A DNA stretch of 64,000 nucleotides from Eledone cirrhosa (taxonomy: Eukaryota): contig OZ024764.1 of assembly GCA_964016885.1 (NCBI GenBank), positions 28,892,001 to 28,956,000 of the forward strand, in the 5' to 3' direction. The notes beneath the pieces were generated by a model, which saw only the letters and a program-made list of their open reading frames with translations, was not told the DNA's origin and made no database searches. Every line of letters begins with the position of its first letter. Within the stretch, counting starts at the first letter, position 1. The translations under genes were made by a program, and so were the position numbers. Below, one piece after another: positions 801-64,000 of the stretch.

Positions 801-1112
801 ATTTAAAAGGAAAATCGCGTTTAAAATAAGCTTTATAAAGATAAACCAAATTTTATGTGACTCCATTTTGTTTGTTATTGTTTCTTTTACTGTTTTACTT
901 ATTTCTTATTTCTTATTAAATTACACTTAATTAATTCCATTAAATATTTATTCTTGCTCATATTAAATTACTGTATATTTATTCATGTCATTGTTGCAAC
1001 TTTCATTTCTACATCTTTCATTTATACCGACTGTTACACCGGTCGTATAATTACTTTTATAACACCGCTATATTACCTACATGAAAGAGGTAAATATTTA
1101 TTTCTCTTGTCT

Positions 1113-1545
1113 TCTTAACATAGCTAGGACCGTTTATTATTTACTAGTCTCTACTCCTAGGACTTTGCTGGTCTCATGTCCCCTCCATCAACACACAATC
1201 GGTAGAAAGCTGGTCGTCGGAGGTAAAGTGGCCCTGATTACAGGTCTAGTATTGAAGCCTTTCGGCGTGAGCCTTGCTGATGCCGACAGAGTTCCTGTGG
1301 TAGTTTTGGTAGCACAGGTGACATTTTATTGTGTTTAGGTACCGGCTAGTGCGGACACAGAGAGCACGACCAAGTGTAGAGGGCCAGCTTTGAAATTCGA
1401 GCGAAGGAGTGAACTAGTAAAAGAGGCAGGGTAAGCAGCATTGGTTCTAACGGTGGGACTAGAACGGAGGTTGGGTGGTGCTGGGGGTGGTCTAACAGCT
1501 AACAGTTGTAGGAGTGGTGGGGGTTTGCTAGGATTAATTTTTACA
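1113..1545 (-). mobile_element. Possible solo-LTR-like GC-rich segment abutting the Helitron helicase end (copy A; one terminus removed by a 34-bp deletion)
   Basis: Paralogous to 38135-38616, which is bounded by TGTA...TACA and has AATAAA near its minus-strand 3' end. No target-site duplication seen. Confidence 0.3.
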
Positions 1546-3825
1546 TCTGTCTGTGAACTCTTGAAAAAGCAACATACAATTGTCCAGGGTTAAATACTTG
1601 CTCAGGGAGGAACAGACCCACTTTATCATGTATTTGACCATGGTTCTTGTTGATTGTCATGGCATATGACAGTCTTAATGGAAACTGGGGTCTTTCCAAA
1701 GTAAAAGGGATGTTGGCACCACTGGGGGATAACTTCAGTCTTGGGATCAAAACACACCTGCCCATCAAAGGACCATAGATATGAGAAGCTTCGATAAAAT
1801 GTTTATGCAGTTCCACTACTTCTAATCTTGTGCCAATAAAATAATCTGTTCTGGATTGAAATATTCCATAGAAGCATTATTATTGATCCTGCTTTTAATT
1901 GGAGTTAGTGAGGCGGCATCCCAGAAGGTGTAAGCATTGCCTCTTTGAAAGTAAACTCTGTTTGTTCTCCAGGTGTGTGGCTAGGCTGTATACTGTATGT
2001 GATGTACCATGAAGCTTAAATTCTGAGAGACACAACACTGCTTCTGGCTGAGACACATACCTGCAACAAAGATAGGTTCTTATTTCATCATGGTTGTGTT
2101 GGTTCTGAGCCTCATTAGGTAATGCATTATTCGTTACTTCTATAGATGTACAATCATGCCCCATGTAACATATTTAAAGAGGTACTTGACACTTTTTACA
2201 GAAGCGCAAACTTCAACATTAATATGTGCACAATATTTCTTAAGCAAAAAGGCATTAAGTGGCACAACATTCCTGTTATCTACTGAATGTCATCCAATTT
2301 ACACTGCAGTTCCTGTCTTGCACCTCCTGTACTCTGGGTATCCATTTAGGTTCAATAATGTTTCCCTTCTGTAGGTTTTTGGATAGTTCTTTTGGAAAAA
2401 TCCATTTTGTATAAATGGGGGAAAAGGGTTTCCAGAACCACATGGCCTGTGGATAATAAACTTTTAAACCTGCTCATGTAGTACTGGATCATCTTCCAAT
2501 GCAGGTATTTCTGCTGACACGATTCTGTCAATGTCTTCTCTGTTTCATATCTTGTCTTCATTTTTTAAGGCTCAGTGTTATCATCTGTTTAGATAATTCA
2601 TTAAACCATTATACTCATCCACTCACAATTGGGCTTGATTGTTCCTCAAATATTGAAGCCTGCATCCCTCTACTTTCATATAGGCATCCACTAAATACTG
2701 CTAAAATAATTTACCTGCCCTATATATCGCACTAAATCCTCCTCTATATGCTATACAGTATATGTAATACTCCTGCATTGTCAGTCTATTGCAAACACAG
2801 GTCCTGCATTCCTCTCCATGTCACTATGCCACCAAAATTCACCATTATCGGTCGGTCATGAGGTCCAAGTGGCATGAATTATGTGGTATTTTCTGAGGAG
2901 GATGGTCTTTAGGAAAGATGATAATATCTCTTTGTACAGGTTGTGTGCCCTCAATCCCCCACAAAACAACAGCTATCATTACTAGTTGGTAAATTATAGC
3001 AGCTCATATCTGATCCTCTTCTAAATCTTAATTCACAGTTCTGTACACGACAATTTTCTCTTCTAGAACTTTGCTGTTTGATGCCATGCATTGTATTGTA
3101 CACTTCGACATATGGATAACATTCATGCAACACCTCTCTTATCATAGCCATTTTTTGTGGTGAGCAGTCATTATTTGTTGGTACTAGGGTGGTGGATTGG
3201 CAGTATCGGTAGAGCGTCAGACACCATGCTTTGCAGCATAGGGTTATGGCCCTTTACGTTCTGGGTTCAAATCCCTCTAAGGTTGACTTTGTTTTCATCC
3301 TTATGAGGTCGATAGAATAAAGTACCAGTAATTGCTGGCCTTGTGCCAGAAACAATTATTTGGTTGTACTTCCAATCTGTGCTACACACTTTCATTCCCA
3401 TCAATAATATATAACTGGCCATATTGTGGTGTATTTTCTGCAGGTTACAGAGATGGGGGTGTATTGATATGTTTGACCCTGAATATGAAAGCTATACGGG
3501 CCTCTGCCGGGTGGTAACACCAAATGAAGTGAAATAAATGTAGTTTTAATTGCAGATGTTTCTGTGAAATCAACTGCTTCCTGGCCTCTTTCAAAGAGAT
3601 TTCTCAGTCTCTCAGGGTATATTTGCAATGGTGGCAACACAACCTTTCCTTTATTACAACAGTTACAATTTTCATTTCTAAATTTCAAAGCTCCACAGTG
3701 ATCACACGAAACATTCATATCACTAATATGAAATTCTTCTACATTTCCATTAATATTAATTGTTGGCCAATTTCTCTTACAACGCTCATTATCCATTCTT
3801 CTCTGTCTGAATGTTTTCCATTCTG
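1546..3825 (-). pseudogene. Decayed, internally deleted Helitron RepHel (Rep initiator + PIF1-family helicase), copy A
   Basis: Minus-strand motifs occur in canonical order across stops and frameshifts: CDHCGALKF..E..CCNKGKVVLP; GPYSFHIQGQ; YGQLYIID; YNLPT; QYLVDAYMKVEGCRLQYLRNNQ; VSAEIP..DP..IHRPCG; GYPEYRR; DNRNVVP..HINVEVCASVKSVKYLFKYV/GHD (Rep motif 3 tyrosines); DEI..Y..RYVS.PEA; and the helicase end QFPLRLSYAMTINK..GQ..VF..GQLYVAFSRV. Confidence 0.93.
3186..3354 (+). mobile_element. tRNA-derived SINE (octopus-type) inserted in the Helitron ORF
   Basis: A-box-like TGGCAGTATCGG, B-box GGTTCAAATCC, body GTTGACTTTG.TTTCATCCTT..GAGGTCGAT..AAAGTACCAGT, 3' CTGGCCTTGTGCC. Flanked by a 16-bp degenerate TSD, ATTATTTGTTGGTACT (3170-3185) and ATTATTTGGTTGTACT (3355-3370). 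Helitron-like translation resumes on both sides. Confidence 0.85.
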
Positions 3826-3952: not shown

Positions 3953-4066
3953 ACATAAACAAGACTGTTATTACTCCAACCAGTCTATTTACCTTTGATA
4001 ACTATCCTAAATATAAATACACCTATACCATACATACATATATCATATATCTTTTTGATGCCGTGG

Positions 4067-4423
4067 TATAGCAGAGATAAGCAAGAAGAGAAAAGAAATT
4101 GAAAAGGAGAAAAAAAAGGAAGTAAGAAGTCGGGGGAGGGACAGACACTTCACCCCAGTCTAAGTGGTCCCTCAGCCGCAACACGTGGAAGAAACGTAAA
4201 AGCGTTACCTCGGAACAAGGCCAGAGACACCTGCTACAATAGTTGCCCCTCCTCACGAGGCTCCTGCCGTCTTTCCTCCCGACTTTATGGAGGAAATCAG
4301 CAGTAGGGGGACCAAGTATGGCAGAGGTCTCAATGGAGTGGAAGAGGTGAGTCAGGCCTCAGTACTATCTTACTCTCCTCTGCGTTGCGGGGTGTGGAGC
4401 CTAGGTTTGTGGCTGTAGCTATA
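4067..4423. mobile_element. 357-bp GC-rich unclassified element (LTR-like), copy A
   Basis: GC-rich island in AT-rich DNA, bounded by the short inverted repeat TATAGC...GCTATA. Near-identical copy at 31404-31760 and a distant relative at 36700-37243. Confidence 0.3.
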
Positions 4424-4479
4424 TTTGAACTTTTATATGAAATTTCAGTTTTATATTTTTCACATCTTAAAACTTAATC

Positions 4480-4544
4480 TTAGTCTTTTGCAGCTCATCT
4501 AGTTTCATCTCACAGCACACGATTTGGGAACCACTGCTCTAGAG
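4480..4544. mobile_element. hAT/Charlie-like MITE terminus with target-like 8-mer
   Basis: TTTGGGAACCACTG (4523-4536; reverse complement CAGTGGTTCCCAAA, a Charlie-type TIR) is followed directly by CTCTAGAG, matching the NTCTAGAN target preference. No partner TIR found. Confidence 0.5.
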
Positions 4545-4882
4545 ATAGAAAAAGTATATTTTATGCAAGGCTTCCTTGAGACATAAAAACTATTTCAAGA
4601 GATCAACATGGGTAGAAAGGTTGAGAAATGCTGCTCAATGTTCTTCGGTTTTTGTTCACCTTTAAATAATCATGTATAAAATATCGGGTGTGCAAGATTT
4701 CATGAAAAGGTATAACATTATTTATGCTGATCTTGCAGGGACTAGCTCCAATTGAGATTTGTACAATTCCCACTAAACTCGAAACTCCTGGACAATATAT
4801 ACATATCTTTATAAGTTCCTGTGTATTGTGGCGGTGTCTAATGAAACATAAATATATACCATGCATGTCAGTCAGATTTGAA

Positions 4883-5112
4883 CAGAATTATTAGCCACAG
4901 GGGCAGAGATGTCCATAACATTACATGACAGAATTATTAGCCACAGGGGCAGAGATGTCCATAACATTACATGTCAGAATTATGAGCCACTGGGGCAGAG
5001 ATGTCCCTAACATTACATGTCAGAATTATTAGCCACAGGGGCAGAGATGTCCATAACATAACATGACAGAATTATTAGCCACAGGGGCAGAGATGTCCAT
5101 AACATTACATGT
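4883..5112 (+). repeat. 46-bp satellite, ~5 units, orientation A (CAGAATTATTAGCCACAGGGGCAGAGATGTCCATAACATTACATGW)
   Basis: Exact 46-bp period (4883, 4929, ...); switches strand at 5110-5112. Confidence 0.95.
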
Positions 5113-8100
5113 GGCTAATAATTCTGTCATGTAATGTTATGGACATCTCTGCCCCTGTGGCTAATAATTCTGTCATGTAATGTTATGGTCATCTCTGCCC
5201 CTATGGCTAATAAATCTGTCATGTAATGTTATGGACATCTCTGCCCCTGTGGCTAATAATTATGTCATGTAATGTTATAGACATCTCTGCCCCTGTGGCT
5301 AATAAATCTGTCATGTAATGTTATGGACATCTCTGCCCCTGTGGCTAATAAATCTGTCATGTAATGTTATGGACATCTCTGCCCCTGTGGCTAATAATTC
5401 TGACATGTAATGTTATGGACATCTCTGCCCCTGTGGCTAATAAATCTGCCATGTAATGTTATGGACATCTCTGCCCCTGTGGCTAATAAATCTGTCATGT
5501 AATGTTATGGACATCTCTGCCCCTGTGGCTAATAATTCTGACATGTAATGTTATGGACATCTCTGCCCCTGTGGCTAATAATTCTGACATGTGATGTTAT
5601 GGACATCTCTGCCCCTGTGGCTAATAATTCTGACATGTAATGTTATGGACATCTCTGCCCCTGTGGCTAATAATTCTGAGAGAGATGAAACAAGTGAGGG
5701 ATTAGAGTGTTGAAAGAAGAGAGAGAGAGCGAGATGAAATGAGAGAGTGTGAGCGAGATGAAACGAGACAGGGAGAGCGAGATGAAACGAGAGAGTGAGA
5801 GCGAGATGAAACGAGAGAGTGAGAGCGAGATGAAACGAGAGAGAGAGAGCGAGATGAAATGAGAGAGAGAGAGCGAGATGAAATGAGAGAGAGAGAGCGA
5901 GATGAAACAGGAGAGAGAGAGCGAGATGAAACGAGAGGGAGAGAGAGATAGAGGGAGATGAAACGACAGAGAGAGAGACAGATGAAACGAGAGAGAGAGA
6001 GATGAAATGAGAGAGAGGAAGAGTGAGATGGAACGAGAGAGAGGAAGACAGAGATGGAAGACAGAGGTGAAACGAGAGAGAGAGAGAGCGAGATGAAACG
6101 AGAGAGAGGAAGAGAGAGAGCGCGAGATGAAACGAGAGAGAGAGAGCGCGAGATGAAACTCTGTCATGTAATGTTATGGACATATCTGCCCTTGGGGCTA
6201 ATAATTGTCATGTAATGTTATGGACATCTCTGCCCCTGTGGCTAATAACTCTGACATGTAATGTTATGGACATCTCTGCCCCTGTGGCTAATAATTCTGA
6301 GAGAGATGAAACAAGTGAGGGATTAGAGTGTTGAAACAAGAGGAAGAGAGAGAGAGAGAGCGAGATGAAATGAGACAGGGAGAGCGAGATGAAACGCAAT
6401 AGTGAGAGAAGCGAGATGAAACGAGAGAGTGAGAGCGAGATGAAACGAGAGCGAGAGAGAGCGAGATGAAACGAGACAGAGAGAGCGAGATGTAATGAGA
6501 GAGAGAGAGAGCGGGATGGAACGAGACAGAGAGGAAACGAGAGTAGAGAGGGAGATGAAACGAGAGGGAGAGAGAGATGAAACGAGAGAGCGAGAGAGAG
6601 ATGAAACGAGGGAGATAGAGATGAAACGAGAGAGAGGAAGAGAGAGATGGAACGAGAAAGAGGAAGAGAGAGATGGAACGAGAGAGAGGAAGACAGAGAT
6701 GAAACGAGAGAGAGAGAGAGAGCGAGATGAAACGAGACAGAGAGAGCGCGAGATGAAACGAGAGAGAGAGAGAGAGCACGAGATGAAACGACAGAGAGAG
6801 AGACAGATTGAAGGAGGGAGATACAGATAAAACGAGAGAGAGGATGAGAGAGATGGAACGAGAGAGAGGAATAGAGAGATGGAACGAGAGAGAGGAAGAC
6901 AGAGATGAAACGAGAGAGAGAGAGAGCAAGATGAAACGAGAGAGAGAGAGCGCAAGATGAAACGAGAGAGAGAGAGAGCGCGAGATGAAACTCTATCATG
7001 TAATGTTATTGATATATCTGCCCCTGTGGCTAATAATTGTCATGTAATGTTATGGTCATCTCTGCCCCTGTGGCTAATAATTCTGTCATGTAATGTTATG
7101 GACGTCTCCGCCCCTGTGGCTAATAATTCTGACATGTAATGTTATGGACGTCTCTGCCCCTGTGGCTAATAATTCTGACATGTAATGTTATGGACATCTC
7201 TGCCCTGTGGCTAATAATTCTGACATGTAATGTTATGGACATCTCTGCCCCTGTGGCTAATAATTCTGAGAGAGATGAAACAAGTGAGGGATTAGAGAGA
7301 GATAAAACAAGTGAGGGATTAGAGTGTTGAAACAAGAGAGAGAGAGGAAGAGAGAGAGAGAGCGAGATGAAACAAGAGAGTGAGAGAAGCGAGATGAAAC
7401 GAGAGAGTGAGAGCGAGATCAAACGAGAAAGAGAGAGAGCGAGATGAAACGAGACAGAGATGAAACGAGAGAGAGAGGAAATGAGAGAGAGGAAACGAGA
7501 GTAGAGAGCGAGATGAAACAGGAGAGAGAGAGCGAGAAGAAACGAGCGGGAGAGAGAGATGAAACGAGAGAGCGAGAGAGAGATGAAACGAGGGAGATAG
7601 AGATGAAACGAGAGAGAGGAAGAGAGAGATGGAACGAGAGAGAGGAAGAGAGAGATGGAACGAGAGAGAGGAAGACAGAGATGAAACGAGAGAGAGCGAG
7701 ATGAAACGAGACAGAGAGAGCGCGAGATGAAACGAGAGAGAGAGAGCGCGAGATGAAACGACAGAGAGAGAGACAGATGAAAGGAGGGAGATAGAGATGA
7801 AACGAGAGAGAGGATGAGAGAGATGGAACGAGGGAGAGGAAGAGAGAGAGGAAGACAGAGATGAAACGAGAGAGAGAGAGAGCGCAAGATGAAACGAGAG
7901 AGAGAGAGCGCGAGATGAAACTCTGTCATGTAATGTTATTGACATATCTGCCCCTGTGGCTAATAATTTTCATGTAATGTTATGGTCATCTCTGCCCCTG
8001 TGGCTAATAATTCTGTCATGTAATGTTATGGACATCTCTGCCCTTGTGGCTAATAATTCTGACATGTAATGTTATGGTCATCTCTGTCCCTGTGGCTAAT

Positions 8101-11100
8101 AATTCTGAGAGATAGTAAACAAGTGAGGGATTAGAGTGTTGAAACAAGAGAGAGAGAGCGAGAAGAAATGAGAGAGTGAGAACGGGATGAAACGAGAGAG
8201 GGAGAGCGAGATGAAACGAGAGAGAGAGAGCGAGATGAAATGAGAGAGAGAGAGCGAGATGAAACGGGAGGGAGAGAGAGATGAAACGAGAGAGAGAGAG
8301 GAAACGAGAGTAGAGAGCGAGATGAAACAGGAGAGAGAGAGCGAGATGAAATGAGAGGGAGAGAGAGATGAAACGAGAGAGCGAGAGAGAGATGAAACGA
8401 GGGAGAGGAAGAGAGAGATGGAACGAGAGAGAGGAAGACAGAGATGGAACGAGAGAGAGGAAGACAGAGATGAAACGAGAGAGAGAGAGCGAGATGAAAC
8501 AGGAGAGAGAGAGCGAGATGAAACGAGAGGGAGAGAGAGATGAAACGAGAGAGCGAGAGAGAGATGAAACAAGGGAGATAGAGATGAAACGAGAGAGAGG
8601 AAGAGAGAGATGGAACGAGAGAGAGGAAGAGAGAGATGGCACGAGAGAGAGGAAGACAGAGATGAAACGAGAGAGAGAGAGCGAGATGAAACGAGAGAGA
8701 GAGAGCGCGACATGAAACGAGAGAGAGAGAGCGCGAGATGAAACTACAGAGAGCGAGACAGATGAAAGAAGGGAGATAGAGATGAAACGAGAGAGAGGAA
8801 GAGAGAGATGGAACGAGAGAGAGGAAGAGAGAGATGGAACGAGAGAGAGGAAGACAGAGATGAAACGAGAGAGAGAGCGAGATGAAACGAGAGAGAGAGA
8901 GAGCGTAAGATGAAACGAGAGAGAGAGAGCGCGAGATGAAACGACAGAGAGAGAGACAGATGAAAGGAGGGAGATAGAGATGAAACGAGAGAGAGGATGA
9001 GAGGGATGGAACGAGAGAGAGGAAGAGAGAGATGGAACGAGAGAGAGGAAGACAGAGATGAAACGAGAGAGAGAGAGAGCAAGACGAAACGAGAGAGAGA
9101 GAGAGCGCAAGATGAAACGAGAGAGAGAGAGAGCGCGAGATGAAACGACAGAGAGAGAGACAGATGAAAGAAGGGAGATAGAGATGAAACGAGAGAGAGG
9201 AAGAGAGAGATGGAACGAGAGAGAGGAAGTGAGAGATGGAACGAGAGAGAGGAAGACAGAGATGAAACGAGAGAGAGAGAGAGCGAGATGAAACGAGAGA
9301 GAGGAAGACAGAGATGAAACGAGAGAGAGGGAGAGCGAGATGAAACGAGAGAGAGAGAGCGCAAGATGAAACGAGAGAGAGAGAGCGCGAGATGAAACGA
9401 CAGAGAGAGAGACAGATGAAAGGAGGGAGATAGAGATGAAACGAGAGAGAGGAAGAGAGAGATGAAACGAGAGAGAGGAAGAGAGAGAGCGCGAGATGAA
9501 ACTCTCTCATGTAATGTTATCGACATATCTGCCCTTGGGGCTAATAATTGTCATGTAATGTTATGGACATCTCTGCCCCTATGGCTAATAATTCTGACAT
9601 GTAATGTTATGGACATCTCTGCCCCTGTGGCTAATAATTCTGTCATGTAATGTTATGGACATCTCTGCCCCTGTGGCTAATAATTCTGACATGTAATGTT
9701 ATGGACATCTCTGCCCCTGTGGCTAATAATTCTGACGTAATGTTATGGACATCTCTGCCCTGTGGCTAATAATTCTGACATGCAATGTTATGGACATCTC
9801 TGCCCCTGTGGCTAATAATTCTGAGAGAGATGAACCAAGTGAGGGATTAGAGAGAGATAAAACAAGTGAGGGATTAGAGTGTTGAAACAAGAGAGAGAGA
9901 GGAAGAGAGAGAGAGAGCGAGATGAAACAAGAGAGTGAGAGAAGCGAGATGAAACGAGAGAGTGAGAGCGAGATCAAACGAGAAAGAGAGAGAGCGAGAT
10001 GAAACGAGACAGAGATGAAACGAGAGAGAGAGGAAATGAGAGAGAGGAAACGAGAGTAGAGAGCGAGATGAAACAGGAGAGAGAGAGCGAGAAGAAACGA
10101 GCGGGAGAGAGGGATGAAACGAGAGAGCGAGAGAGAGATGAAACGAGGGAGATAGAGATGAAACGAGAGAGAGGAAGAGAAAGATGGAACGAGAGAGAGG
10201 AAGAGAGAGATGGAAGACAGAGATGAAACGAGAGAGAGCGAGATGAAACGAGACAGAGAGAGCGCGAGATGAAACGAGAGAGAGAGAGCGCGAGATGAAA
10301 CGACAGAGAGAGAGACAGATGAAAGGAGGGAGATAGAGATGAAACGAGAGAGAGGATGAGAGAGATGGAACGAGGGAGAGGAAGAGAGAGATGGAACGAG
10401 AGAGAGGAAGACAGAGATGAAACGAGAGAGAGAGCAAGATGAAACGAGAGAGAGAGAGAGCGCAAGATGAAACGAGAGAGAGAGAGCGCGAGATGAAACT
10501 CTGTCATGTAATGTTATTGACATATCTGCCCCTGTGGCTAATAATTGTCATGTAATGTTATGGTCATCTCTGCCCCTGTGGCTAATAATTCTGTCATGTA
10601 ATGTTATGGACATCTCTGCCCTTGTGGCTAATAATTCTGACATGTAATGTTATGGTCATCTCTGTCCCTGTGGCTAATAATTCTGAGAGATAGTAAACAA
10701 GTGAGGGATTAGAGTGTTGAAACAAGAGAGAGAGAGCGAGAAGAAATGAGAGAGTGAGAGCGGGATGAAACGAGAGAGGGAGAGCGAGATGAAACGAGAG
10801 AGAGAGAGCGAGATGAAATGAGAGAGAGAGAGCGAGATGAAACGGGAGGGAGAGAGAGATGAAACGAGAGAGAGAGAGGAAACGAGAGTAGAGAGCGAGA
10901 TGAAATGAGAGGGAGAGAGAGATGAAACGAGAGAGCGAGAGAGAGATGAAATGAGGGAGAGGAAGAGAGAGATGGAACGAGAGAGAGGAAGACAGAGATG
11001 GAACGAGAGAGAGGAAGACAGAGATGAAACGAGAGAGAGAGAGCGAGATGAAACAGGAGAGAGAGAGCGAGATGAAACGAGAGGGAGAGAGAGATGAAAC

Positions 11101-14100: not shown

Positions 14101-14748
14101 GAGATGGAACGAGAGAGAGGAAGAGAGAGATGGAGCGAGAGAGAGGAAGACAGAGATGAAACGAGAGAGAGAGAGAGCAAGACGAAACGAGAGAGAGAGA
14201 GAGCGCAAGATGAAACGAGAGAGAGAGAGAGAGCGCGAGATGAAACGACAGAGAGAGAGACAGATGAAAGAAGGGAGATAGAGATGAAACGAGAGAGAGG
14301 AAGAGAGAGATGGAACGAGAGAGAGGAAGTGAGAGATGGAACGAGAGAGAGGAAGACAGAGATGAAACGAGAGAGAGAGAGAGCGAGATGAAACGAGAGA
14401 GAGGAAGACAGAGATGAAACGAGAGAGAGGGAGAGCGAGATGAAACGAGAGAGAGAGCGCGCAAGATGAAACTCTGTCATGTAATGTTATTGACATATCT
14501 GACCCTGTGGCTAATAATTGTCATGTAATGTTATGGTCATCTCTGCCCCTGTGGCTAATAATTCTGTCATGTAATGTTATGGACATCTCTGCCCCTGTGG
14601 CTAATAATTCTGACATGTAATGTTATGGACATCTCTGCCCCTGTGGCTAATAATTCTGACATGTAATGTTATGGAAATCTATGCCCCTGTGGCTAATAAT
14701 TCTGTCATGTAATGTTATGGACATCTCTGCCCCTGTGGCTAATAAATC
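5110..14748 (-). repeat. Composite satellite block 1, left arm (orientation B): 46-bp repeat runs alternating with 8 GA-rich modules
   Basis: Modules at ~5679-6159, 6300-6991, 7269-7921, 8108-9502, 9824-10499, 10685-12042, 12364-13021 and 13208-14472. Each begins TTCTG|AGAGA..AACAAGTGAGGGATTAGAG and ends GATGAAAC|TCT.TCATG. Confidence 0.95.
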
Positions 14749-14749
14749 A

Positions 14750-41091: not shown

Positions 41092-41130
41092 GTGTGTATA
41101 TACATAAACAAGACTGTTATTACTCCAACC

Positions 41131-50100: not shown

Positions 50101-51077
50101 CGAGAGAGAGAGAGCGAGATGAAACGAGAGAGAGAGAGCGCGACATGAAACGAGAGAGAGAGAGCGCGAGATGAAACGACAGAGAGCGAGACAGATGAAA
50201 GAAGGGAGATAGAGATGAAACGAGAGAGAGGAAGAGAGAGATGGAACGAGAGAGAGGAAGAGAGAGATGGAACGAGAGAGAGGAAGACAGAGATGAAACG
50301 AGAGAGAGAACGAGATGAAACGAGAGAGAGAGAGCGCAAGATGAAACGAGAGAGAGAGAGAGCGCGAGATGAAACGACAGAGAGAGAGACAGATGAAAGG
50401 AGGGAGATAGAGATGAAACGAGAGAGAGGATGAGAGAGATGGAACGAGAGAGAGGAATAGAGAGATGGAACGAGAGAGAGGAAGACAGAGATGAAACGAG
50501 AGAGAGAGAGAGCAAGACGAAACGAGAGAGAGAGGGCGCAAGATGAAACGAGAGAGAGAGAGCGCGAGATGAAACGACAGAGAGAGAGACAGATGAAAGA
50601 AGGGAGATAGAGATGAAACGAAAGAGAGGAAGAGAGAGATGGAACGAGAGAGAGGAAGAGAGAGATGGAACGAGAGAGAGGAAGACAGAGATGAAACGAG
50701 AGAGAGAGAGAGCGAGATGAAACGAGAGAGAGGAAGACAGAGATGAAACGAGAGAGAGGGAGAGCGAGATGAAACGAGAGAGAGAGAGCGCAAGATGAAA
50801 CTCTGTCATGTAATGTTATTGACATATCTGCCCCTGTGTCTAATAATTGTCATGTAATGTTATGGTCATCTCTGCCCCTGTGGCTAATAATTCTGTCATG
50901 TAATGTTATGGACATCTCTGCCCCTGTGGCTAATAATTCTGACATGTAATGTTATGGACATCTCTGCCCCTGTGGCTAATAATTCTGACAAGTAATGTTA
51001 TGGAAATCTCTGCCCCTGTGGCTAATAATTCTGTCATGTAATGTTATGGACATCTCTGCCCCTGTGGCTAATAAATC
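41131..51077 (-). repeat. Composite satellite block 2, left arm (orientation B), 10 GA-rich modules separated by 46-bp runs
   Basis: Modules at ~41373-42045, 42505-43090, 43185-43834, 43974-44571, 44804-45382, 45523-46249, 46527-47225, 47503-48048, 48372-49066 and 49161-50801. Confidence 0.95.
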
Positions 51078-51078
51078 A

Positions 51079-54000: not shown

Positions 54001-57000
54001 TTCATCTCGCTCTCTACTCTCGTTTCCTCTCTCTCGTTTCGTCTCTCTCGTTTCCTCTCTCTCTCGTTTCATCTAGCTCTCCCACTCTCGTTCCATCTCG
54101 CTCTCACTCTCTCGTTTCATCTCGCTCTCTCTCTCTCATTTCATCTCGCTCTCTCTCTCTCGTTTCATCTCGCTCTCTCTGTCTCGTTTCATCTCGCTCT
54201 CGCTCTCTCTGTCTCGTTTCATCCCGCTCTCTCTGTCTCGTTTCATCTCGCTCTCTCTCTCTCATTTCATCTCGCTCTCTCTCTCTCATTTCATCTCGCT
54301 CTCTCTCTCTCTCTCGTTTCATCTCGCTCTCACTCTCTCATTTCATCTCGCTCTCTCTCGTTTGATTTCGCTCTCACTCTCTCTTCCTCTCTCTCTCTCT
54401 TGTTTCAACACTCTAATCCCTCACTTGTTTCATCTCTCTCTAATCCCTCACTTTATTCATCTCTCTCAGAATTATTAGCCACAGGGGCAGAGATGTCCAT
54501 AACATTACATGTCAGAATTATTAGCCACAGGGGCAGAGATGTCCATAACATTACATGACAGATTTATTAGCCACAGGGGCAGAGATGTCCATAACATTAC
54601 ATGTCATATTTATTAGCCACAGGGGCAGAGATGTCCATAACATTACATGTCAGAATTATTAGCCACAGGGGCAGAGATGTCCATAACATTACATGACAGA
54701 TTTATTAGCCACAGGGGCAGAGATGTCCATAACATTACATGACAGAATTATTAGCCACAGGGGCAGAGATGTCCATAACATTACATGAAAGAATTATTAG
54801 CCACAGAGGCAGAGATTTCCATAACATTACATGACAATTATTAGCCCCAAGGGCAGATATGTCCATAACATTACATGACAGACTTTCATCTCGCGCTCTC
54901 TCTCTCGTTTCATCTTGCGCTCTCTCTCTTCCTCTCTCTCGTTTCATCTTGCTCTCTCTCTCTCTCGTTTCATCTCGCGTTCTCTCTTCCTCTCTCTCGT
55001 TTCATCTCGCTCTCTCTCTCTCTCGTTTCATCTCTGTCTTCCTCTCTCTCGTTCCATCTCTCTCTTCCTCTCTCTCGTTCCATCTCTCTCTTCCTCTCTC
55101 TCGTTTCATCTCTCTCTCTCGTTTCATCTCTATCTCCCTCGTTTCATCTGTCTCTCTCTCTGTCGTTTCATCTCCCTCTATCTCTCTCTCGCTCTCTCGT
55201 TTCATCTCTCTCTCCCTCTCGTTTCATCTCGCTCTCTCTCTCCTGTTTCATCTCGCTCTCTCTCTCCTGTTTCATCTCGCTCTCTACTCTCGTTTCCTCT
55301 CTCTCGTATCCTCTCTCTCGTTTCCTCTCTCTCTCGTTTCCTCTAGCTCTCACTCTCTCGTTTCATCTCGCTCTCTCTCTCTCATTTCATCTCGCTCTCT
55401 CTCTCTCGTTTCATCTCGCTCTAATCTGTCTCGTTTCATTTCGCTCTCTCTCTCTCTCGTTTCATCTCGCTCTCTCTGTCTCGTTTCATCTCGCTCTCTC
55501 TCTCTCATTTCATCTCGCTCTCGCTCTCTCATTTCATCTCGCTCTCTCTCTCTCGTTTCATCTCGCTCTCACTCTCTCATTTCATCTCGCTCTCTCTCTC
55601 TCGTTTGATCTCGCTCTCACTCTCTCTTCCTCTCTCTCTCTTGTTTCAACACTCTAATCCCTCATTTGTTTCATCTCTCTCTTATCCCTCACTTGTTTCA
55701 TCTCTCTCAGAATTATTAGCCAGAGGGGCAGAGATATCCATAACATTACATGTCAGAATTATTAGCCACAGGGGCAGAGATGTCCATAACATTACATGAC
55801 AGATTTATTAGCCACAGGGGCAGAGATGTCCATAACATTACATGACGAATTTATTAGCCACAGGGGCAGAGATGTCCATAACATTACATGACAGAATTAT
55901 TAGCCACAGGGGCAGAGATGTCCATAACATTACATGTCAGAATTATTAGCCACAGGGGCAGAGATGTCCATAACATTACATGACAGATTTATTAGCCACA
56001 GGGGCAGAGATGTCCATAACATTACATGTCAGAATTATTAGCCACAGGGGCAGAGATGTCCATAACATTACATGACAGATTTATTAGCCACAGGGGCAGA
56101 GATGTCCATAACATTACATGTCATATTTATTAGCCACAGGGGCAGAGATGTCCATAACATTACATGTCAGAATTATTAGCCACAGGGGCAGAGATGTCCA
56201 TAACATTACATGACAGATTTATTAGCCACAGGGGCAGAGATGTCCATAACATTACATGACAGAATTATTAGCCACAGGGGCAGAGATGTCCATAACATTA
56301 CATGACAGAATTATTAGCCACAGGGGCAGAGATTTCCATAACATTACATGACAATTATTAGCCCCAAGGGCAGATATGTCCATAACATTACATGACAGAC
56401 TTTCATCTCGCGCTCTCTCTCTCTCGTTTCATCTTGCGCTCTCTCTCTTCCTCTCTCTCGTTTCATCTTGCTCTCTCTCTCGTTTCATCTCGCGTTCTCT
56501 CTCTTCCTCTCTCTCGTTTCATCTCGCTCTCTCTCTCTCTCGTTTCATCTCTGTCTTCCTCTCTCTCGTTCCATCTCTCTCTTCCTCTCTCTCGTTCCAT
56601 CTCTCTCTTCCTCTCTCTCGTTTCATCTCTCTCTCTCGTTTCATCTCTATCTCCCTCGTTTCATCTGTCTCTCTCTCTGTCGTTTCATCTCCCTCTATCT
56701 CTCTCTCGCTCTCTCGTTTCATCTCACTCTCCCTCTCGTTTCATCTCGCTCTCTCTCTCCTGTTTCATCTCGCTCTCTCTCTCCTGTTTCATCTCGCTCT
56801 TTACTCTCGTTTCCTCTCTCTCGTATCCTCTCTCTCGTTTCCTCTCTCTCTCGTTTCCTGTCTCTATAGTTTCCTCTAGCTCTCACTCTCTCGTTTCATC
56901 TCGCTCTCTCTCTCTCATTTCATCTTGCTCTCTCTCTCTCGTTTCATCTCGCTCTAATCTGTCTCGTTTCATTTCGCTCTCTCTCTCTCTCGTTTCACCT

Positions 57001-60000
57001 CGCTCTCTCTGTCTCGTTTCATCTCGCTCTCTCTCTCTCATTTCATCTCGCTCTCTCTCTCTCATTTCATCTCGCTCTCTCTCTCTCGTTTCATCTCGCT
57101 CTCACTCTCTCATTTCATCTCGCTCTCTCTCTCTCGTTTGATCTCGCTCTCACTCTCTCTTCCTCTCTCTCTCTTGTTTCAACACTCTAATCCCTCACTT
57201 GTTTCATCTATCTCTTATCCCTCACTTGTTTCATCTCTCTCAGAATTATTAGCCACAGGGGCAGAGATATCCATAACATTACATGTCAGAATTATTAGCC
57301 ACAGGGGAAGAGATGTCCAAAACATTACATGACAGATTTATTAGCCACAGGGGCAGAGATGTCCATAACATTACATGACGAATTTATTAGCCACAGGGGC
57401 AGAGATGTCCATAACATTACATGACAGAATTATTAGCCACAGGGGCAGAGATGTCCATAACATTACATGACATAATTATTAGCCACAGGGACAGAGGTAT
57501 CCATAACATTACATGACAGAATTATTTGCCACAGGGGCAGAGATGTACATAACATTACATGACAATTATTAGCCCCAAGGGTAGATATGTCCATAACATT
57601 ACATGACAGTTATTAGCCCCAAGGGCAGATATGTCCATAACATTACATGACAGACTTTCATCTCGCGCTCTTTCTCTTCCTCTCTCTCGTTTCATCTCGC
57701 TCTCTCTCTCGTTTCATCTCGCTCTCTCTCTCTCGTTTCATCTCGCGCTCTCTCTCTTCCTCTCTCTCGTTTCATCTCGCTATCTCTCTCTCTCGTTTCA
57801 TATCTGTCTTCCTCTCTCTCGTTCCATCTCTCTATTCCTCTCTCTCTCGTTTCATCTAGCTATCACTCTCTCGTTTCATCTCCCTCGATCTCTCTCTCGC
57901 TCTCTCGTTTCATCTCTCCCTCCCTCTCGTTTCATCTCGCTCTCTCTCTCCGGTTTCATCTCGCTCTCTCTCTCTCCTGTTTCATCTTGCTCTCTACTCT
58001 CGTTTCCTCTCTCTCGTTTCCTCTCTCTCGTTTCCTCTCTCTCTCGTTTCCTCTCTCTCTCGTTTCATCTAGCTCTCACTCTCTCGTTTCATCTCGCTCT
58101 CTCTGACTCGTTCCATCTCGCTCTCACTCTCTCGTTTCATCTCGCTCTCTCTCTCTCATTTCATCTCGCTCTCTCTCTCTCATTTCATCTCGATCTCTCT
58201 GTCTCGTTTCATCCCGCTCTCTCTGTCTCGTTTCATCTCGCTCTCTCTCTCTCATTTCATCTCGCTCTCTCTCTGTCATTTCATCTCGCTCTCTCTCACT
58301 CTCTCGTTTCATCTCACTCTCAATCTCTCATTTCATCTCGCTCTCTCTCTCTCATTTCATCTCGCGCTCTCTCTCTTCCTCTCTCTCGTTTCATCTCGCG
58401 CTCTCTCTCTTCCTCTCTCTCGTTTCATCTCGCTCTCTCTCTCTCTCTCGTTTCATCTTGCGCTCTCTCTCTTCCTCTCTCTCGTTTCATCTCGATCTCT
58501 CTCTGTCTCGTTTCATCTCTGTCTTCCTCTCGCTCGTTCCATCTCTCTCTTCCTCTCTCTCGTTCCATCTCTCTCTTCCTCTCTCTCGTTTCATCTCTCT
58601 CTCTCGTTTCATCTTGCTCTCTCTCTCTCTCGTTTCATCTCTGTCTTCCTCTCTCTCGTTCCATCTCTCCCTTCCTCTCTCTCGTTCCATCTCTCTCTTC
58701 CTCTCTCTCGTTTCATCTCTCTCTCTCGTTTCATCTCTATCTCCCTCGTTTCATCTGTCTCTCTCTCTGTCGTTTCATCTCCCTCTATCTCGCTCTCTCG
58801 TTTCATCTCTCTCTCCCTCTCGTTTCATCTCGCTCTCTCTCTACTGTTTCATCTCGCTCTCTCTATCCTGTTTCAGTTCGCTCTCTACTCTCGTTTCCTC
58901 TCTCTCGTTTCGTCTCTCTCGTTTCCTCTCTCTCTCGTTTCATCTAGCTCTCCCACTCTCGTTTCATCTCGCTCTCTCTGTCTCGTTCCATCTCGCTCTC
59001 ACTCTCTCGTTTCATCTCGCTCTCTCTCTCTCATTTCATCTCGCTCTCTCTCTCTCATTTCATCTCGCTCTCTCTCTCTCGTTTCATCTCGCTCTCTCTG
59101 TCTCGTTTCATCTCGCTCTCGCTCTCTCTGTCTCGTTTCATCCCGCTCTCTCTGTCTCGTTTCATCTCGCTCTCTCTCTCTCATTTCATCTCGCTGTCTC
59201 TCTCTCATTTCATCTCGCTCTCTCTCTCTCTCTCGTTTCATCTCGCTCTCACTCTCTCATTTCATCTCGCTCTCTCTCGTTTGATTTCGCTCTCACTCTC
59301 TCTTCCTCTCTCTCTCTCTCTTGTTTCAACACTCTAATCCCTCACTTGTTTCATCTCTCTCTAATCCCTCACTTGTTTCATCTCTCTCAGAATTATTAGC
59401 CACAGGGGCAGAGATGTCCATAACATTACATGTCAGAATTATTAGCCACAGGGGCAGAGATGTCCATAACATTACATGACAGATTTATTAGCCACAGGGG
59501 CAGAGATGTCCATAACATTACATGTCATATTTATTAGCCACAGGGGCAGAGATGTCCATAACATTACATGTCAGAATTATTAGCCACAGGGGCAGAGATG
59601 TCCATAACATTACATGACAGATTTATTAGCCACAGGGGCAGAGATGTCCATAACATTACATGACAGAATTATTAGCCACAGGGGCAGAGATGTCCATAAC
59701 ATTACATGAAAGAATTATTAGCCACAGAGGCAGAGATTTCCATAACATTACATGACAATTATTAGCCCCAAGGGCAGATATGTCCATAACATTACATGAC
59801 AGACTTTCATCTCGCGCTCTCTCTCTCGTTTCATCTTGCGCTCTCTCTCTTCCTCTCTCTCGTTTCATCTTGCTCTCTCTCTCTCTCGTTTCATCTCGCG
59901 TTCTCTCTTCCTCTCTCTCGTTTCATCTCGCTCTCTCTCTCTCTCGTTTCATCTCTGTCTTCCTCTCTCTCGTTCCATCTCTCTCTTCCTCTCTCTCGTT

Positions 60001-63000
60001 CCATCTCTCTCTTCCTCTCTCTCGTTTCATCTCTCTCTCTCGTTTCATCTCTATCTCCCTCGTTTCATCTGTCTCTCTCTCTGTCGTTTCATCTCCCTCT
60101 ATCTCTCTCTCGCTCTCTCGTTTCATCTCTCTCACCCTCTCGTTTCATCTCGCTCTCTCTCTCCTGTTTCATCTCGCTCTCTCTCTCCTGTTTCATCTCG
60201 CTCTCTACTCTCGTTTCCTCTCTCTCGTATCCTCTCTCTCGTTTCCTCTCTCTCTCGTTTCCTCTAGCTCTCACTCTCTCGTTTCATCTCGCTCTCTCTC
60301 TCTCATTTCATCTCGCTCTCTCTCTCTCGTTTCATCTCGCTCTAATCTGTCTCGTTTCATTTCGCTCTCTCTCTCTCTCGTTTCATCTCGCTCTCTCTGT
60401 CTCGTTTCATCTCGCTCTCTCTCTCTCATTTCATCTCGCTCTCGCTCTCTCATTTCATCTCGCTCTCTCTCTCTCGTTTCATCTCGCTCTCACTCTCTCA
60501 TTTCATCTCGCTCTCTCTCTCTCGTTTGATCTCGCTCTCACTCTCTCTTCCTCTCTCTCTCTTGTTTCAACACTCTAATCCCTCATTTGTTTCATCTCTC
60601 TCTTATCCCTCACTTGTTTCATCACTCTCAGAATTATTAGCCACAGGGGCAGAGATATCCATAACATTACATGTCAGAATTATTAGCCACAGGGGCAGAG
60701 ATGTCCATAACATTACATGACAGATTTATTAGCCACAGGGGCAGAGATGTCCATAACATTACATGACGAATTTATTAGCCACAGGGGCAGAGATGTCCAT
60801 AACATTACATGACAGAATTATTAGCCACAGGGGCAGAGATGTCCATAACATTACATGACATAATTATTAGCCACAGGGACAGAGATGTCCATAACATTAC
60901 ATGACAGAATTATTTGCCACAGGGGCAGAGATGTACATAACATTACATGACAATTATTAGCCCCAAGGGTAGATATGTCCATAACATTACATGACAGACT
61001 TTCATCTCGCGCTCTCTCTCTTCCTCTCTCTCGTTTCATCTCGCTCTCTCTCTCTCTCGTTTCATATCTGTCTTCCTCTCTCTCGTTCCATCTCTCTATT
61101 CCTCTCTCTCTCGTTTCATCTAGCTATCACTCTCTCGTTTCATCTCCCTCTATCTCTCTCTCGCTCTCTCGTTTCATCTCTCCCTCCCTCTCGTTTCATC
61201 TCGCTCTCTCTCTCCGGTTTCATCTCGCTCTCTCTCTCTGCTGTTTCATCTTGCTCTCTACTCTCGTTTCCTCTCTCTCGTTTCCTCTCTCTCGTTTCCT
61301 CTCTCTCTCGTTTCCTCTCTCTCTCGTTTCCTCTCTCTCTCGTTTCATCTAGCTCTCACTCTCTCGTTTCATTTCGCTCTCTCTGACTCGTTCCATCTCG
61401 CTCTCACTCTCTCGTTTCATCTCGCTCTCTCTCTCTCATTTCATCTCGCTCTCTCTCTCTCATTTCATCTCGATCTCTCTGTCTCGTTTCATCCCGCTCT
61501 CTCTGTCTCGTTTCATCTCGCTCTCTCTCTCTCATTTCATCTCGCTCTCTCTCTCTCATTTCATCTCGCTCTCTCTCACTCTCTCGTTTCATCTCACTCT
61601 CAATCTCTCATTTCATCTCGCTCTCTCTCTCTCATTTCATCTCGCGCTCTCTCTCTCTTCCTCTCTCTCGTTTCATCTCGCGCTCTCTCTCTTCCTCTCT
61701 CTCGTTTCATCTCGCTCTCTATCTCTCTCTCGTTTCATCTTGCGCTCTCTCTCTTCCTCTCTCTCGTTTCATCTCGATCTCTCTCTGTCTCGTTTCATCT
61801 CTGTCTTCCTCTCGCTCGTTCCATCTCTCTCTTCCTCTCTCTCGTTCCATCTCTCTCTTCCTCTCTCTCGTTTCATCTCTCTCTCTCGTTTCATCTTGCT
61901 CTCTCTCTCTCTCGTTTCATCTCTGTCTTCCTCTCTCTCGTTCCATCTCTCTCTTCCTCTCTCTCGTTCCATCTCTCTCTTCCTCTCTCTCGTTTCATCT
62001 CTCTCTCTCGTTTCATCTCTATCTCCCTCGTTTCATCTGTCTCTCTCTCTGTCGTTTCATCTCCCTCTATATCTCTCTCGCTCTCTCGTTTCATCTCTCT
62101 CTCCCTCTCGTTTCATCTCGCTCTCTCGCTCCTGTTTAATCTCGCTCTCTCTCTCCTGTTTCATCTCGCTCTCTACCCTCGTTTCCTCTCTCTCGTTTCG
62201 TCTCTCTCATTTCCTCTCTCTCTCGTTTCATCTAGCTCTCCCACTCTCGTTTCATCTCGCTCTCTCTGTCTCGTTCCATCTCGCTCTCACTCTCTCGTTT
62301 CATCTCGCTCTCTCTCTCTCATTTCATCTCGCTCTCTCTCTCTCATTTCATCTCGCTCTCTCTCTCTCGTTTCATCTCGCTCTCTCTGTCTCGTTTCATC
62401 TCGCTCTCGCTCTCTCTGTCTCGTTTCATCCCGCTCTCTCTCTCTCATTTCATCTCGCTCTCTCTCTCTCATTTCATCTCGCTCTCTCTCTCTCTCTCTC
62501 TCGTTTCATCTCGCTCTCACTCTCTCATTTCATCTCGCTCTCTCTCGTTTGATTTCGCTCTCACTCTCTCTTCCTCTCTCTCTCTTGTTTCAACACTCTA
62601 ATCCCTCACTTGTTTCATCTCTCTCTAATCCCTCACTTGTTTCATCTCTCACAGAATTATTAACCACAGGGGCAGAGATGTCCATAACATTACATGTCAG
62701 AATTATTAGCCACAGGGGCAGAGATGTCCATAACATTACATGTCAGAATTATTAGCCACAGGGGCAGAGATGTCCATAACATTACATGACAGATTTATTA
62801 GCCACAGGGGCAGAGATGTCCATAACATTACATGACGAATTTATTAGCAACAGGGGCAGAGATGTCCATAACATTACATGTCAGAATTATTAGCTACAGG
62901 GGCAGAGATGTCCATAACATTACATGTCACAATTATTAGCCACAGGGGCAGAGATGTCCATAACATTACATGACAGATTTATTAGCCACAGGGGCAGAGA

Positions 63001-63800
63001 TGTCCGTAACATCAAATGACAGATTTATTAGCCACAGGGGCAGAGATTCCATAACATTACATGTCAGAATTATTAGCCACAGGGGCAGAGATTTCCATAA
63101 CATTACATGACAGAATTATTAGCCACAGGGGCAGAGATGTCCATAACATTACATGACAGAATTATTAGCCACAGGGGCAGAGATGTCCATAACATTACAT
63201 GACAATTATTAGCCCCAGGGTCAGATATGTCCATGACAGAGTTTCATCTCTCGTTTCATCTCTCTCTCCCTCTCGTTTCATCTCGCTCTCTCGCTCCTGT
63301 TTCATCTCGCTCTCTACTCACGTTTCCTCTCTCTCGTTTCCTCTCTTTCTCGTTTCATCTCTCTCTCGTTTCATCTCTCTATGTCTCATTTCATCTCGCT
63401 CTCTCTCTCTCTCATTTCATCTCGTTCTCTCTCTCTCTCATTTCATCTCGCTCTCACTCTCTCGTTTCATCTCGCTCTCTCACTCTCGTTTCATCTCGCA
63501 CTCTCTCTCTCGTTTCATCTCTCTCTCTCACTCTCACTCTCTCATTTCATCTCGCTCTCTGTCTCGTGTCATCTCGCTCTCTCTGTCTCTCGTTTCATCT
63601 CGCTCTCACTCTCTCGTTTCATCTCACTCTAACTCTCTCATTTCATCTCGCTCTCCCTGTCTCGTTTCATCTCGCTCCCACTCTCTCATTTCATCTCACT
63701 CTCTTTCTCTCATTTCATCTCGCTCTCTCTCTCTTGTTTCAACACTCTAATCCCTCACTTGTTTCATCTCTCTCTAATCCCTCACTTGTTTCATCTCTCT
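51079..63800 (+). repeat. Composite satellite block 2, right arm (orientation A), 8 CT-rich modules separated by 46-bp runs
   Basis: Modules at ~51584-52428, 52795-54467, 54882-55708, 56399-57241, 57654-59388, 59803-60629, 60998-62653 and 63241-63800. Confidence 0.95.
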
Positions 63801-64000
63801 CTTGTTTCAATTCTTTCTCTCTCTCTCTCTCTCTCTCTCTTTCTATCCCCTCTCTCTGTTGTTTCATCCCCTTCTCTCCCCCTCTCTCTCTTCCCCTCTA
63901 TCTCTATTCCTCTCTCTCATCCCCTCTCTCTCTCTTCCTCTCTCTCTCTCTCTTCCTCTCTCCCCTCACCCTCTTGTTTCAACTCTCTCCTCGTTTCAAC
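63801..64000. repeat. Degenerate (CT)n-rich low-complexity tract with GTTTCA motifs
   Basis: Irregular CT runs containing TTGTTTCAA, GTTTCATC and CGTTTCAAC; continues past the window edge. Confidence 0.8.

What the first reader, a model, noticed from the sequence alone, without database searches (positions are those of the whole stretch)
1052..64000. ~36-37 kb macro-unit: dead Helitron followed by a ~23-25 kb palindromic composite satellite, present twice in tandem
Seen: the order [LTR-like segment, Helitron RepHel, B-arm satellite, palindrome centre, A-arm satellite] occurs twice. Offsets are 37015 bp for the Helitron block (1052 vs 38067) and 36329 bp for the centre (14749 vs 51078). Rare terminal variants (GCTACAGGGG, TCCGTAAC, GAGATTCCAT, CCCCAGGGTCAGATATGTCCATGACAGAG) are shared by 28740-29100 and 62880-63241. 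Known: Helitron/Helentron elements carry and spread tandem repeats (Drosophila DINE-TR1, oyster Helentron-associated satellites). Inference: this is a multi-level repeat (dinucleotide, ~20-bp motif, module plus 46-mers, higher-order repeat, palindrome, macro-unit), possibly spread by rolling-circle transposition or ordinary segmental duplication. It is the best candidate here for an undescribed system, and it is structural or non-coding rather than protein-coding.
Basis: partly seen in the sequence, partly recalled or inferred. Interest (0 to 1): 0.75.

Follow-up and report, generated by a model that had tools for sequence, protein, structure and literature searches.

The report
Nested macrosatellite carrying a dead Helitron
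The window holds two of the four differing sub-units of a roughly 100-kb repeat, part of a family that fills megabases of a few animal chromosomes; the jumping gene inside lacks both of its ends and was likely just carried along, and the 'palindrome' is likely one old strand-switch copied 67 times, so this is an elaborate but ordinary kind of satellite DNA.

Summary
The described order and offsets are real, but 36-37 kb is not the period. The two units (A, B; Helitron parts 92-96% alike) are sub-units of a 98-106 kb four-part higher-order repeat, and each has 99.1-99.6% copies about 100 kb away. The family fills about 2 Mb of C25, with related arrays on C18 and C20. The RepHel relic lacks its HUH region, helicase core and both termini, which dispersed relatives retain. 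It also forms satellite-free arrays, so rolling-circle spread is not supported. The 'palindrome' mirrors for only about 200-270 bp; the arms carry different variants. All-direct, micro-inverted, single-module and empty forms exist elsewhere. Best reading: a patchwork of transposon relics gained a 46-bp/TC composite satellite, one microhomology-mediated inversion likely followed, and unequal exchange likely amplified every level. This is a new member of a known kind (composite macrosatellite with satellite macro-dyads). The scan reported similar structures on other pieces of this genome.

The parts
1052..1540 (.). 'LTR-like' segment: piece of a dispersed repeat that lies next to the Helitron's original insertion site; LTR identity not shown
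   Evidence: A less-deleted copy at C25:28.011-28.013 Mb has the Helitron 3' end about 150 bp before this segment; 69-82% matches in 7 of 7 dispersed loci checked
1547..3811 (-). Dead RepHel relic (aa 154-512, 633-838, 1370-1498 of a 1530-aa RepHel; copy B adds aa to 867); HUH region, helicase core and both termini missing
   Evidence: tblastn with P0001; DNA homology to dispersed relatives ends near 3811; termini absent
3984..4880 (.). Segment X, non-coding; continues into U1 in satellite-free copies, fused to the 46-mer array here
   Evidence: Junction census in loci then held; junction text
4882..5110 (+).
   Evidence: TRF, map
5096..5125 (.). Strand-switch junction J1 (+ to -) with about 3 bp of shared sequence; interrupted hairpin
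5111..14748 (-). Reverse arm of unit A: 9 arrays of 46-mers alternating with GA-rich ~24-bp minisatellite tracts (G-type junction)
14737..14761 (.). Centre junction J2 (- to +), near-perfect fold-back; the same 25-mer occurs 67 times in the genome
14750..29719 (+). Forward arm of unit A: 8 arrays of 46-mers with TC-rich tracts (C-type junction)
29720..30430 (.). 'post' segment closing the satellite insert, joined to Helitron position ~3081-3086
30437..32218 (.). Second copy of Helitron 5' piece plus X (96% to 3086-4880), so that a direct duplication brackets the satellite
32220..37390 (.). Non-coding spacer U1-U4 with internal inverted repeats and short VNTRs
   Evidence: no Pfam family above its cut-off in the ORFs tested there
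37397..38039 (+). 55-bp VNTR, 11.7-11.9 copies here, 4.7-30.5 in other units of the 464 kb
38067..41132 (.). Front of unit B: LTR-like segment plus RepHel relic, joined through a 2-bp overlap straight to the reverse arm (X and J1 absent)
41133..51077 (-). Reverse arm of unit B (11 arrays, G-type)
51066..51090 (.). Centre junction J2 of unit B, identical to 14737-14761
51079..64000 (+). Forward arm of unit B (8 arrays, C-type); 'post' follows 323 bp past the window end

Best explanation
This is a composite macrosatellite whose window-visible units are two sub-units of a 98-106 kb higher-order repeat, in which the Helitron lacks both termini and was likely multiplied as a passenger by unequal exchange. 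Shown: an empty ~10.6 kb monomer of transposon relics exists; versions with one 46-mer/TC module, with all-direct modules, with a 200-bp inversion inside the 46-mers, and with long opposed arms exist; all long-arm units share one centre sequence; chromosomes differ in their higher-order arrangement. Inferred history: (1) a Helitron inserted into ordinary repeat-rich DNA and decayed by deletions; (2) that stretch became a tandem monomer; (3) a 46-bp/TC composite satellite was joined to it through 2-3 bp overlaps; (4) one template-switch or inversion event inside the 46-mer array made junctions J1 and J2, giving a (+)(-)(+) layout; (5) modules multiplied within each arm, and monomers, dimers and four-mers multiplied and moved between chromosomes by unequal exchange and segmental duplication; (6) the opposed arms now and then recombine, flipping the centre or making chimeric arms. 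Likely role: none specific; heterochromatic bulk DNA. The order of steps 3-4, and whether the long reverse arm grew from the small inversion or the small inversion is a collapsed long arm, are not resolved.
For: Period and identities: A vs A at -105.8 and +98.2 kb 99.6% over 4880 bp; B vs B 99.1-99.3%; A vs B 92.3-95.8%. 67 centres: C25 36, C18 16, C20 13, C644 2; 66 exact. C20 repeats a B+C pair at about 39 kb. Relic covers only part of RepHel, with no tblastn cover of bins aa 550-599 and 900-1249 in the 122 loci then held. Parental termini (A|TC start; hairpin then CTAG|T-type end) seen in dispersed copies, 0 hits in 464 kb. Satellite-free arrays of the relic on C23 and fragments with unrelated end points on C18, C24, C25, C26, C27. 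Intermediates: empty unit at window +185232 and single-module units; all-direct array on C1; +5|-4|+7 on C18. 120 of 120 modules match best within the same arm orientation; reverse arms 53 of 53 G-type, forward 45 C and 6 G. Centre flipped against its unit at C18:34.938, C18:35.729 and twice on C644; chimeric C/G arms on C18. Copy numbers of modules and of the 55-bp VNTR vary between near-identical units. No host gene found: only RepHel, reverse-transcriptase and PHD pieces pass Pfam cut-offs; no Rfam hit in 60 kb of flank.
Against: The 46-mer/TC satellite is almost confined to this Helitron-bearing unit in the assembly: of the 46-mer loci I mapped, only C7 (2.7 copies) has no relic nearby, and only the first 100 of 4887 hits were listed. 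The single-module insert sits at one Helitron position with TGA on both sides, which looks like an insertion site; I found no donor locus. 22 of 23 examined centres are intact, which is high for a fold-back. The X-segment tree does not settle the order of early steps (key forks under 90% support, context labels partly faulty). Most of the 1.5 Mb reverse block on C25 was inferred from search positions, not read.
Confidence: 0.8

Rival explanations
1. The centres are kept because they do structural work: the unit is a (peri)centromeric or heterochromatin-organising macro-dyad array in which the fold-back would form a hairpin or loop bound by chromatin proteins.
For: 22 of 23 examined centres intact, 66 of 67 hits exact; 200-bp arms at 94-96% fold at about -300 kcal/mol as single strand; on C25 two oppositely oriented blocks flank an 80-bp satellite of at least 250 kb and other satellites; conserved inversion points were hypothesised to matter in Tribolium centromeres (PMC12581902, passages).
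Against: The search finds only centres with at most 1 mismatch, and units are young (99% alike), so identity is expected. The family is on only a few of the large contigs; half the sub-units (C, D, E) have no centre; one centre is deleted (C20:27.2376 Mb). The 80-bp satellite was absent from 14 of 14 samples near the C18 and C20 arrays. An assembly gap lies between the two C25 blocks, so their opposed orientation may be a scaffolding choice.
Confidence: 0.1
2. A non-autonomous Helitron captured the satellite and spread the macro-unit by rolling-circle transposition, as Cg_HINE or DINE-1 elements do.
For: All array copies examined share the same internal deletions; near-identical relic copies lie on at least 8 contigs; other Helitron families with long open frames exist in the genome; tight satellite-relic association.
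Against: Both termini absent, and the left terminus is crucial for Helraiser transposition (PMC5876387, passages); dispersed fragments share no end point; the unit includes DNA from beyond the parental 3' end; period differs by locus (about 8.6, 11, 15, 39 and 100 kb); junctions show 2-3 bp overlaps, not CTAG|TC.
Confidence: 0.06
3. The tandem units or the palindromes are assembly artefacts (haplotype duplication or chimeric fold-back reads).
For: No long reads could be laid; no Logan contig bridged the centre; near-identical 100-kb repeats are hard to assemble, so copy number may be off.
Against: A and B differ by 4-8% and each recurs; arms differ in module type and number; same junction on four contigs; no N in 464 kb; raw RAD reads of another sample of the same species label show opposite-strand joints at 14746/14748 (21 and 34 reads, from only 3 and 2 start places, at least 49 letters on the short side); segment X has summed contig depth 1300-3000 over most of its length in an independent run.
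Confidence: 0.04

Closest known systems
Human composite repeats / macrosatellites (TELO_Comp, ACRO_Comp, LSAU-BETA; Hoyt et al., 10.1101/2021.07.12.451456, passages read)
   Same: Unit made of three or more repeat types (TE pieces, simple repeats, satellites), tandem arrays and single copies on several chromosomes, attributed to unequal crossing over; TELO_Comp has a variable 49-bp array bounded by a duplicated segment, as the 46-bp array here is bounded by duplicated HelB-X.
   Different: Unrelated sequence; here the inner satellite switches strand, and diverged sub-units form a ~100 kb four-part repeat.
Tribolium freemani satellite macro-dyads (TfSat01/TfSat03; PMC12581902, passages read)
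   Same: Multi-kb opposed satellite sub-arrays with conserved inversion points.
   Different: Those are centromere-wide on most chromosomes and simple-monomer; here one ancestral switch point inside a TE-relic macrosatellite on three chromosomes, centromere status untested.
Inverted triplication by template switching (ODIRA; PMC10766186, passages read) and fold-back insertions at breaks (PMC11724301, abstract only)
   Same: (+)(-)(+) layout with two junctions at very short inverted repeats; secondary rearrangement of the junctions.
   Different: ODIRA junction spacers are given as 40-80 nt; here about 1 nt (J2) and about 26 nt (J1). A plain inversion fits equally; no origin dependence tested.
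Helentron-carried satellites (Cg_HINE of Pacific oyster, DINE-1; PMC7492417, passages read)
   Same: Helitron-superfamily sequence next to a tandem array in an animal genome.
   Different: There the array lies between intact element ends and copies are dispersed; here the parent is a canonical TC...CTAG Helitron, its ends are lost, and copies are clustered.
TE-derived tandem arrays shaped by unequal exchange (Drosophila R1, Bari1; PMC5932611, passages read)
   Same: Deletions and insertions inside an array expand and can organise into higher-order repeats; arrays persist with incomplete termini.
   Different: Those start as element dimers; this monomer is a multi-element patchwork.

Membership tests
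Composite macrosatellite (Hoyt et al. definition) | Unit of three or more repeat types | tested here: met
   RepHel relic, RT-bearing LINE relic in sub-unit D, 46-bp, ~24-bp and 55-bp repeats
Composite macrosatellite (Hoyt et al. definition) | Head-to-tail tandem array of the unit | tested here: met
   About 400 kb read continuously on C25; arrays on C20, C18, C23
Composite macrosatellite (Hoyt et al. definition) | Copy-number change by unequal crossing over | tested here: inconclusive
   Variable module, VNTR and sub-unit counts between 99% identical units fit it; no between-individual data
Mobile non-autonomous canonical Helitron | 5' terminus starting TC after a host A | tested here: not met
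   Seen in 2 dispersed relatives; 0 hits in 464 kb at up to 8 substitutions
Mobile non-autonomous canonical Helitron | 3' hairpin followed by CTRR and host T | tested here: not met
   Seen in dispersed relatives and one less-deleted copy at the block edge; 0 hits in 464 kb
Mobile non-autonomous canonical Helitron | Copies share end points; tandem joins are CTAG|TC | tested here: not met
   Dispersed fragments end at different places; junctions are 2-3 bp overlaps
Autonomous Helitron | Intact RepHel with HUH motifs and helicase | tested here: not met
   About aa 513-632 and 868-1366 missing; stops and frameshifts
Helentron/HINE/DINE-1 central-repeat satellite | Array between element ends with subTIRs, IR, microsatellite and 3' palindrome | tested here: inconclusive
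   No dedicated subTIR search; array borders are rearrangement joints that differ between sub-units and the parent is TC...CTAG type
True large palindrome (arm-to-arm mirror) | Colinear, near-identical arms kept alike by conversion | tested here: not met
   Mirror only 200-270 bp; 120 of 120 modules closest within own arm; occasional crossovers on C18 and C644
Inverted triplication (ODIRA type) | Inverted segment between two direct ones, junctions at short inverted repeats | tested here: met
   X|+5|-arm|+arm in 3 of 3 A units of the 464 kb; C18 micro-version
Inverted triplication (ODIRA type) | Copy gain of the inverted segment at the time of the event | tested here: inconclusive
   Within a tandem array an inversion and a triplication look alike
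Centromeric satellite / macro-dyad | CENH3 occupancy; presence at primary constrictions | not testable with these tools
   No ChIP or FISH data; distribution limited to few contigs
LTR (for 1052-1540) | Paired direct LTRs or a solo LTR with TG..CA ends and a target duplication | tested here: inconclusive
   No pair; C1 'pair' is an inverted-repeat insertion with an 8-bp duplication; no target duplication seen by eye; family not identified

The most novel reading that the evidence does not exclude
The single fold-back junction has been kept intact while being amplified 67-fold because it works as a structural element (hairpin, cruciform or loop anchor) of cephalopod heterochromatin or centromeres, and the opposed arms act as a built-in inversion switch that keeps reshuffling the array; the family would then be a complete, readable series from empty monomer to 100-kb higher-order repeat of a functional macro-dyad.
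Probability: 0.1. Interest if true: 0.65.

Novelty: new member of a known kind. Interest (0 to 1): 0.3.

Why it matters
As it stands it is a well-preserved case study: one genome holds empty, single-module, all-direct, micro-inverted, long-armed, centre-deleted, centre-flipped and chimeric versions, plus chromosome-specific higher-order repeats of 39 and about 100 kb. That makes the rates of palindrome loss, flipping and unequal exchange measurable with population long reads. It also cautions against reading Helitron-satellite adjacency as rolling-circle spread without checking termini. My 8 literature searches listed no description of this family or of cephalopod macrosatellites, but the library lacks most subscription papers. 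It would matter much more only if the centres prove functional.

Tried and rejected
X end (4880) as the Helitron 5' terminus: it reads TC on the minus strand, but satellite-free and solo copies run on into U1 and the real terminus was found elsewhere; rejected. C1 'LTR pair': an inverted-repeat insertion; rejected. C7 as donor of the 46-mer: 2.7 near-identical copies inside a SINE-like head, no TC tract; direction cannot be told. A word-level likeness between the 46-mer and the Helitron 3' hairpin was noticed by eye and not tested; treated as chance. A CTCF-like look of the 46-mer (recalled motif) was not tested. The pattern was meant to count intact and interrupted Helitron junctions but matched only the interrupted form (44 of 45 hits). 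The X tree (55 copies of at least 780 bp, shorter ones left out) had a faulty right-context label and did not order the early steps. Link to the 80-bp satellite: found only between the C25 blocks; a 40-nt variant gave 52 hits, all there. Expression: no RNA holder listed. Logan contigs did not bridge the centre, which proves nothing. Rfam was run on 60 kb of flank, not on the window itself. Look-ups of earlier findings by sequence and nearby place returned nothing. Counting X-end junctions genome-wide was not achieved; it was done only on fetched loci.
Full report
Setting. The window is G000:C25:28892001-28956000 of a 3.0 Gb genome; the contig is 29.35 Mb long. The animal is likely an octopus; this rests on a SINE-like repeat that I recall and on earlier scan notes, and was not tested.

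Observation. Composition flips from GA-rich to TC-rich at about 14.75 and 51.08 kb. TRF shows 46-bp arrays alternating with ~24-bp GA/TC minisatellite tracts. Not described: five forward 46-mers at 4882-5110 followed by a strand switch, and a third partial Helitron-plus-X copy at 30437-32218.

The real period. I read 200 kb on each side and mapped landmarks. Sub-units are A (1052-38066), B (38067-74627), C (15.3 kb, one forward 46-mer array plus one TC tract set into the Helitron relic) and D (9.4 kb, relic plus a dead reverse-transcriptase element, PF00078); an empty ~10.6 kb monomer lies at +185232. A recurs at -105.8 and +98.2 kb at 99.6%; B at 99.1-99.3%; C and D at 97.5-99%; A and B fronts are only 92.3-95.8% alike. 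So the window shows two older paralogues inside a young 98-106 kb repeat. The array ends near 29.099 Mb. A reverse-oriented block spans about 26.45-28.01 Mb, known mostly from search positions. The centre 25-mer has 67 hits (C25 36, C18 16, C20 13, C644 2; 66 exact; control 0). The type-C junction has 44 hits on C18, C20 and C25. The end of the satellite tract has 95 exact hits, all on C18, C20 and C25. A 26-mer of the 46-bp unit has 4887 exact hits; extrapolating per-unit counts accounts for roughly 4500 of them, a rough estimate. C20 repeats B+C at about 39 kb.

The Helitron. A 1530-aa RepHel homologue (P0001) aligns to the window at aa 154-512, 633-867 and 1367-1498 with stops and frameshifts; the HUH region and helicase core are missing. 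Dispersed relatives are 67-90% alike to the relic in DNA and match only the coding relic, not X or the flanks. They show canonical ends: A|TC in two copies, and a hairpin followed by CTAG|T (one copy has a variant tetranucleotide), as described for Helraiser, where the left end is crucial (PMC5876387, passages). Neither end is in the 464 kb, at up to 8 substitutions. One less-deleted copy at the edge of the reverse block keeps the helicase and the 3' end, about 150 bp from the 'LTR-like' segment; the array unit therefore contains DNA from beyond the element's end and lost the end by deletion. The same relic forms satellite-free arrays on C23 (periods about 8.6 and 11 kb) and fragments on five other contigs with no shared end points. 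The Helitron is a passenger.

The palindrome. Mirror identity is 94-96% for 200 bp and decays to 54-55% at 800 bp. Of 120 modules in the 464 kb, all match best within their own orientation. One letter at the 46-mer/TC joint separates the arms: reverse 53 of 53 G, forward 45 C and 6 G. Both junctions lie inside 46-mers at 2-3 bp inverted overlaps, giving a (+)(-)(+) layout like an inverted triplication (PMC10766186, passages) or a plain inversion. Other loci hold simpler forms: all-direct modules on C1, a 200-bp inversion +5|-4|+7 on C18 beside an empty unit with the same X type, and a centre-deleted copy on C20. G is the state on C1, at the C18 micro-inversion and in single-module units, which fits an early origin of the reverse arm but does not prove the order. 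The arms do recombine at times: the centre is flipped against its unit in 4 of 23 examined switches, and C18 has chimeric C/G arms. 22 of the 23 keep the exact centre. J1 occurs in two sequence forms among 8 examined.

Independent data. RAD reads from another sample with the same species label show opposite-strand joints at the centre, from few start places. Contigs of two other organism labels carry the 46-mer and its TC joints while X is partial or low; this hints that the composite satellite is older than its fusion to the relic, but these runs are of unrecorded type and contigs show presence only.

Gene content. Among 73 further ORFs of 62 aa or more from the non-satellite parts, one passed a Pfam cut-off, a PHD finger next to the reverse-transcriptase relic. 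No Rfam hit in 60 kb of flank.

Against my reading. The satellite is almost never away from the relic in this assembly; the type-C insert has TGA on both sides and no donor was found; centre retention is high; the tree of X copies is weak; copy numbers rest on one assembly.

Comparison and verdict. The structure meets the definition of a composite macrosatellite (Hoyt et al., passages) and resembles Tribolium macro-dyads (PMC12581902, passages). It fails the tests for a mobile Helitron and for a true arm-to-arm palindrome. Earlier scan notes on other pieces of this genome reach similar readings; they are AI notes and not independent support. No supplements were read. Verdict: real, larger than reported, a new member of a known kind; interest 0.3.

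Noticed in passing
G000:C25:28.14-28.40 Mb (L160-L162, L198): An 80-bp satellite of at least 250 kb (about 90-92% between samples) sits between the two opposed macrosatellite blocks, among 49/72, 132, 65 and 79-bp repeats and an assembly gap near 28.45 Mb; a centromere candidate only by position.
   Followed up: partly
G000:C20:3.5-5.2 Mb, C27:13.0-15.5 Mb, C19:35-40 Mb, C16:0.54-0.80 Mb: A different Helitron family (53-56% to the query) recurs at about 100-150 kb spacing on C20 and C16 and in clusters on C27 and C19, some copies with open frames of 1036 aa, suggesting other long-period tandem blocks.
   Followed up: no
G000:C23:15.18-15.29 Mb and 17.44-17.57 Mb (L103-L112): Satellite-free arrays of the same relic-bearing monomer with their own deletions; some copies carry a LINE-like insertion.
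   Followed up: partly
G000:C7:42172770-42172890 (L056): 2.7 copies of the 46-mer inside a SINE-like head, without TC tract or Helitron; possibly a small templated insertion.
   Followed up: partly
G000:C1:212612270-212613956 (L052): A 1.7-kb insertion with about 700-bp terminal inverted repeats and an 8-bp target duplication inside the 'LTR-like' segment.
   Followed up: partly
L141 around 7990-8030 (G000:C2:393.768 Mb): The parental Helitron's 5' TC directly follows a CTAG, as if inserted behind or in front of another Helitron end.
   Followed up: no
G000:C18:35.03-35.09 Mb (L204-L209): A derived repeat of about 22-26 kb made of an inverted tail, a chimeric arm, a centre and a forward arm, three times in a row.
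   Followed up: partly
window 33400-36300: Spacer U2-U3 holds several opposed copies of a 300-700 bp repeat separated by AT microsatellites, varying in number between units.
   Followed up: no
window 206-410 and 36761-36961: Short 43-bp and ~40-bp tandem repeats in the spacer; the latter has a related array near window +262600.
   Followed up: no
G000:C25:14.683-14.725 Mb (L066-L070): A small separate cluster of three type-C units, one with a 36-copy 46-mer array.
   Followed up: partly
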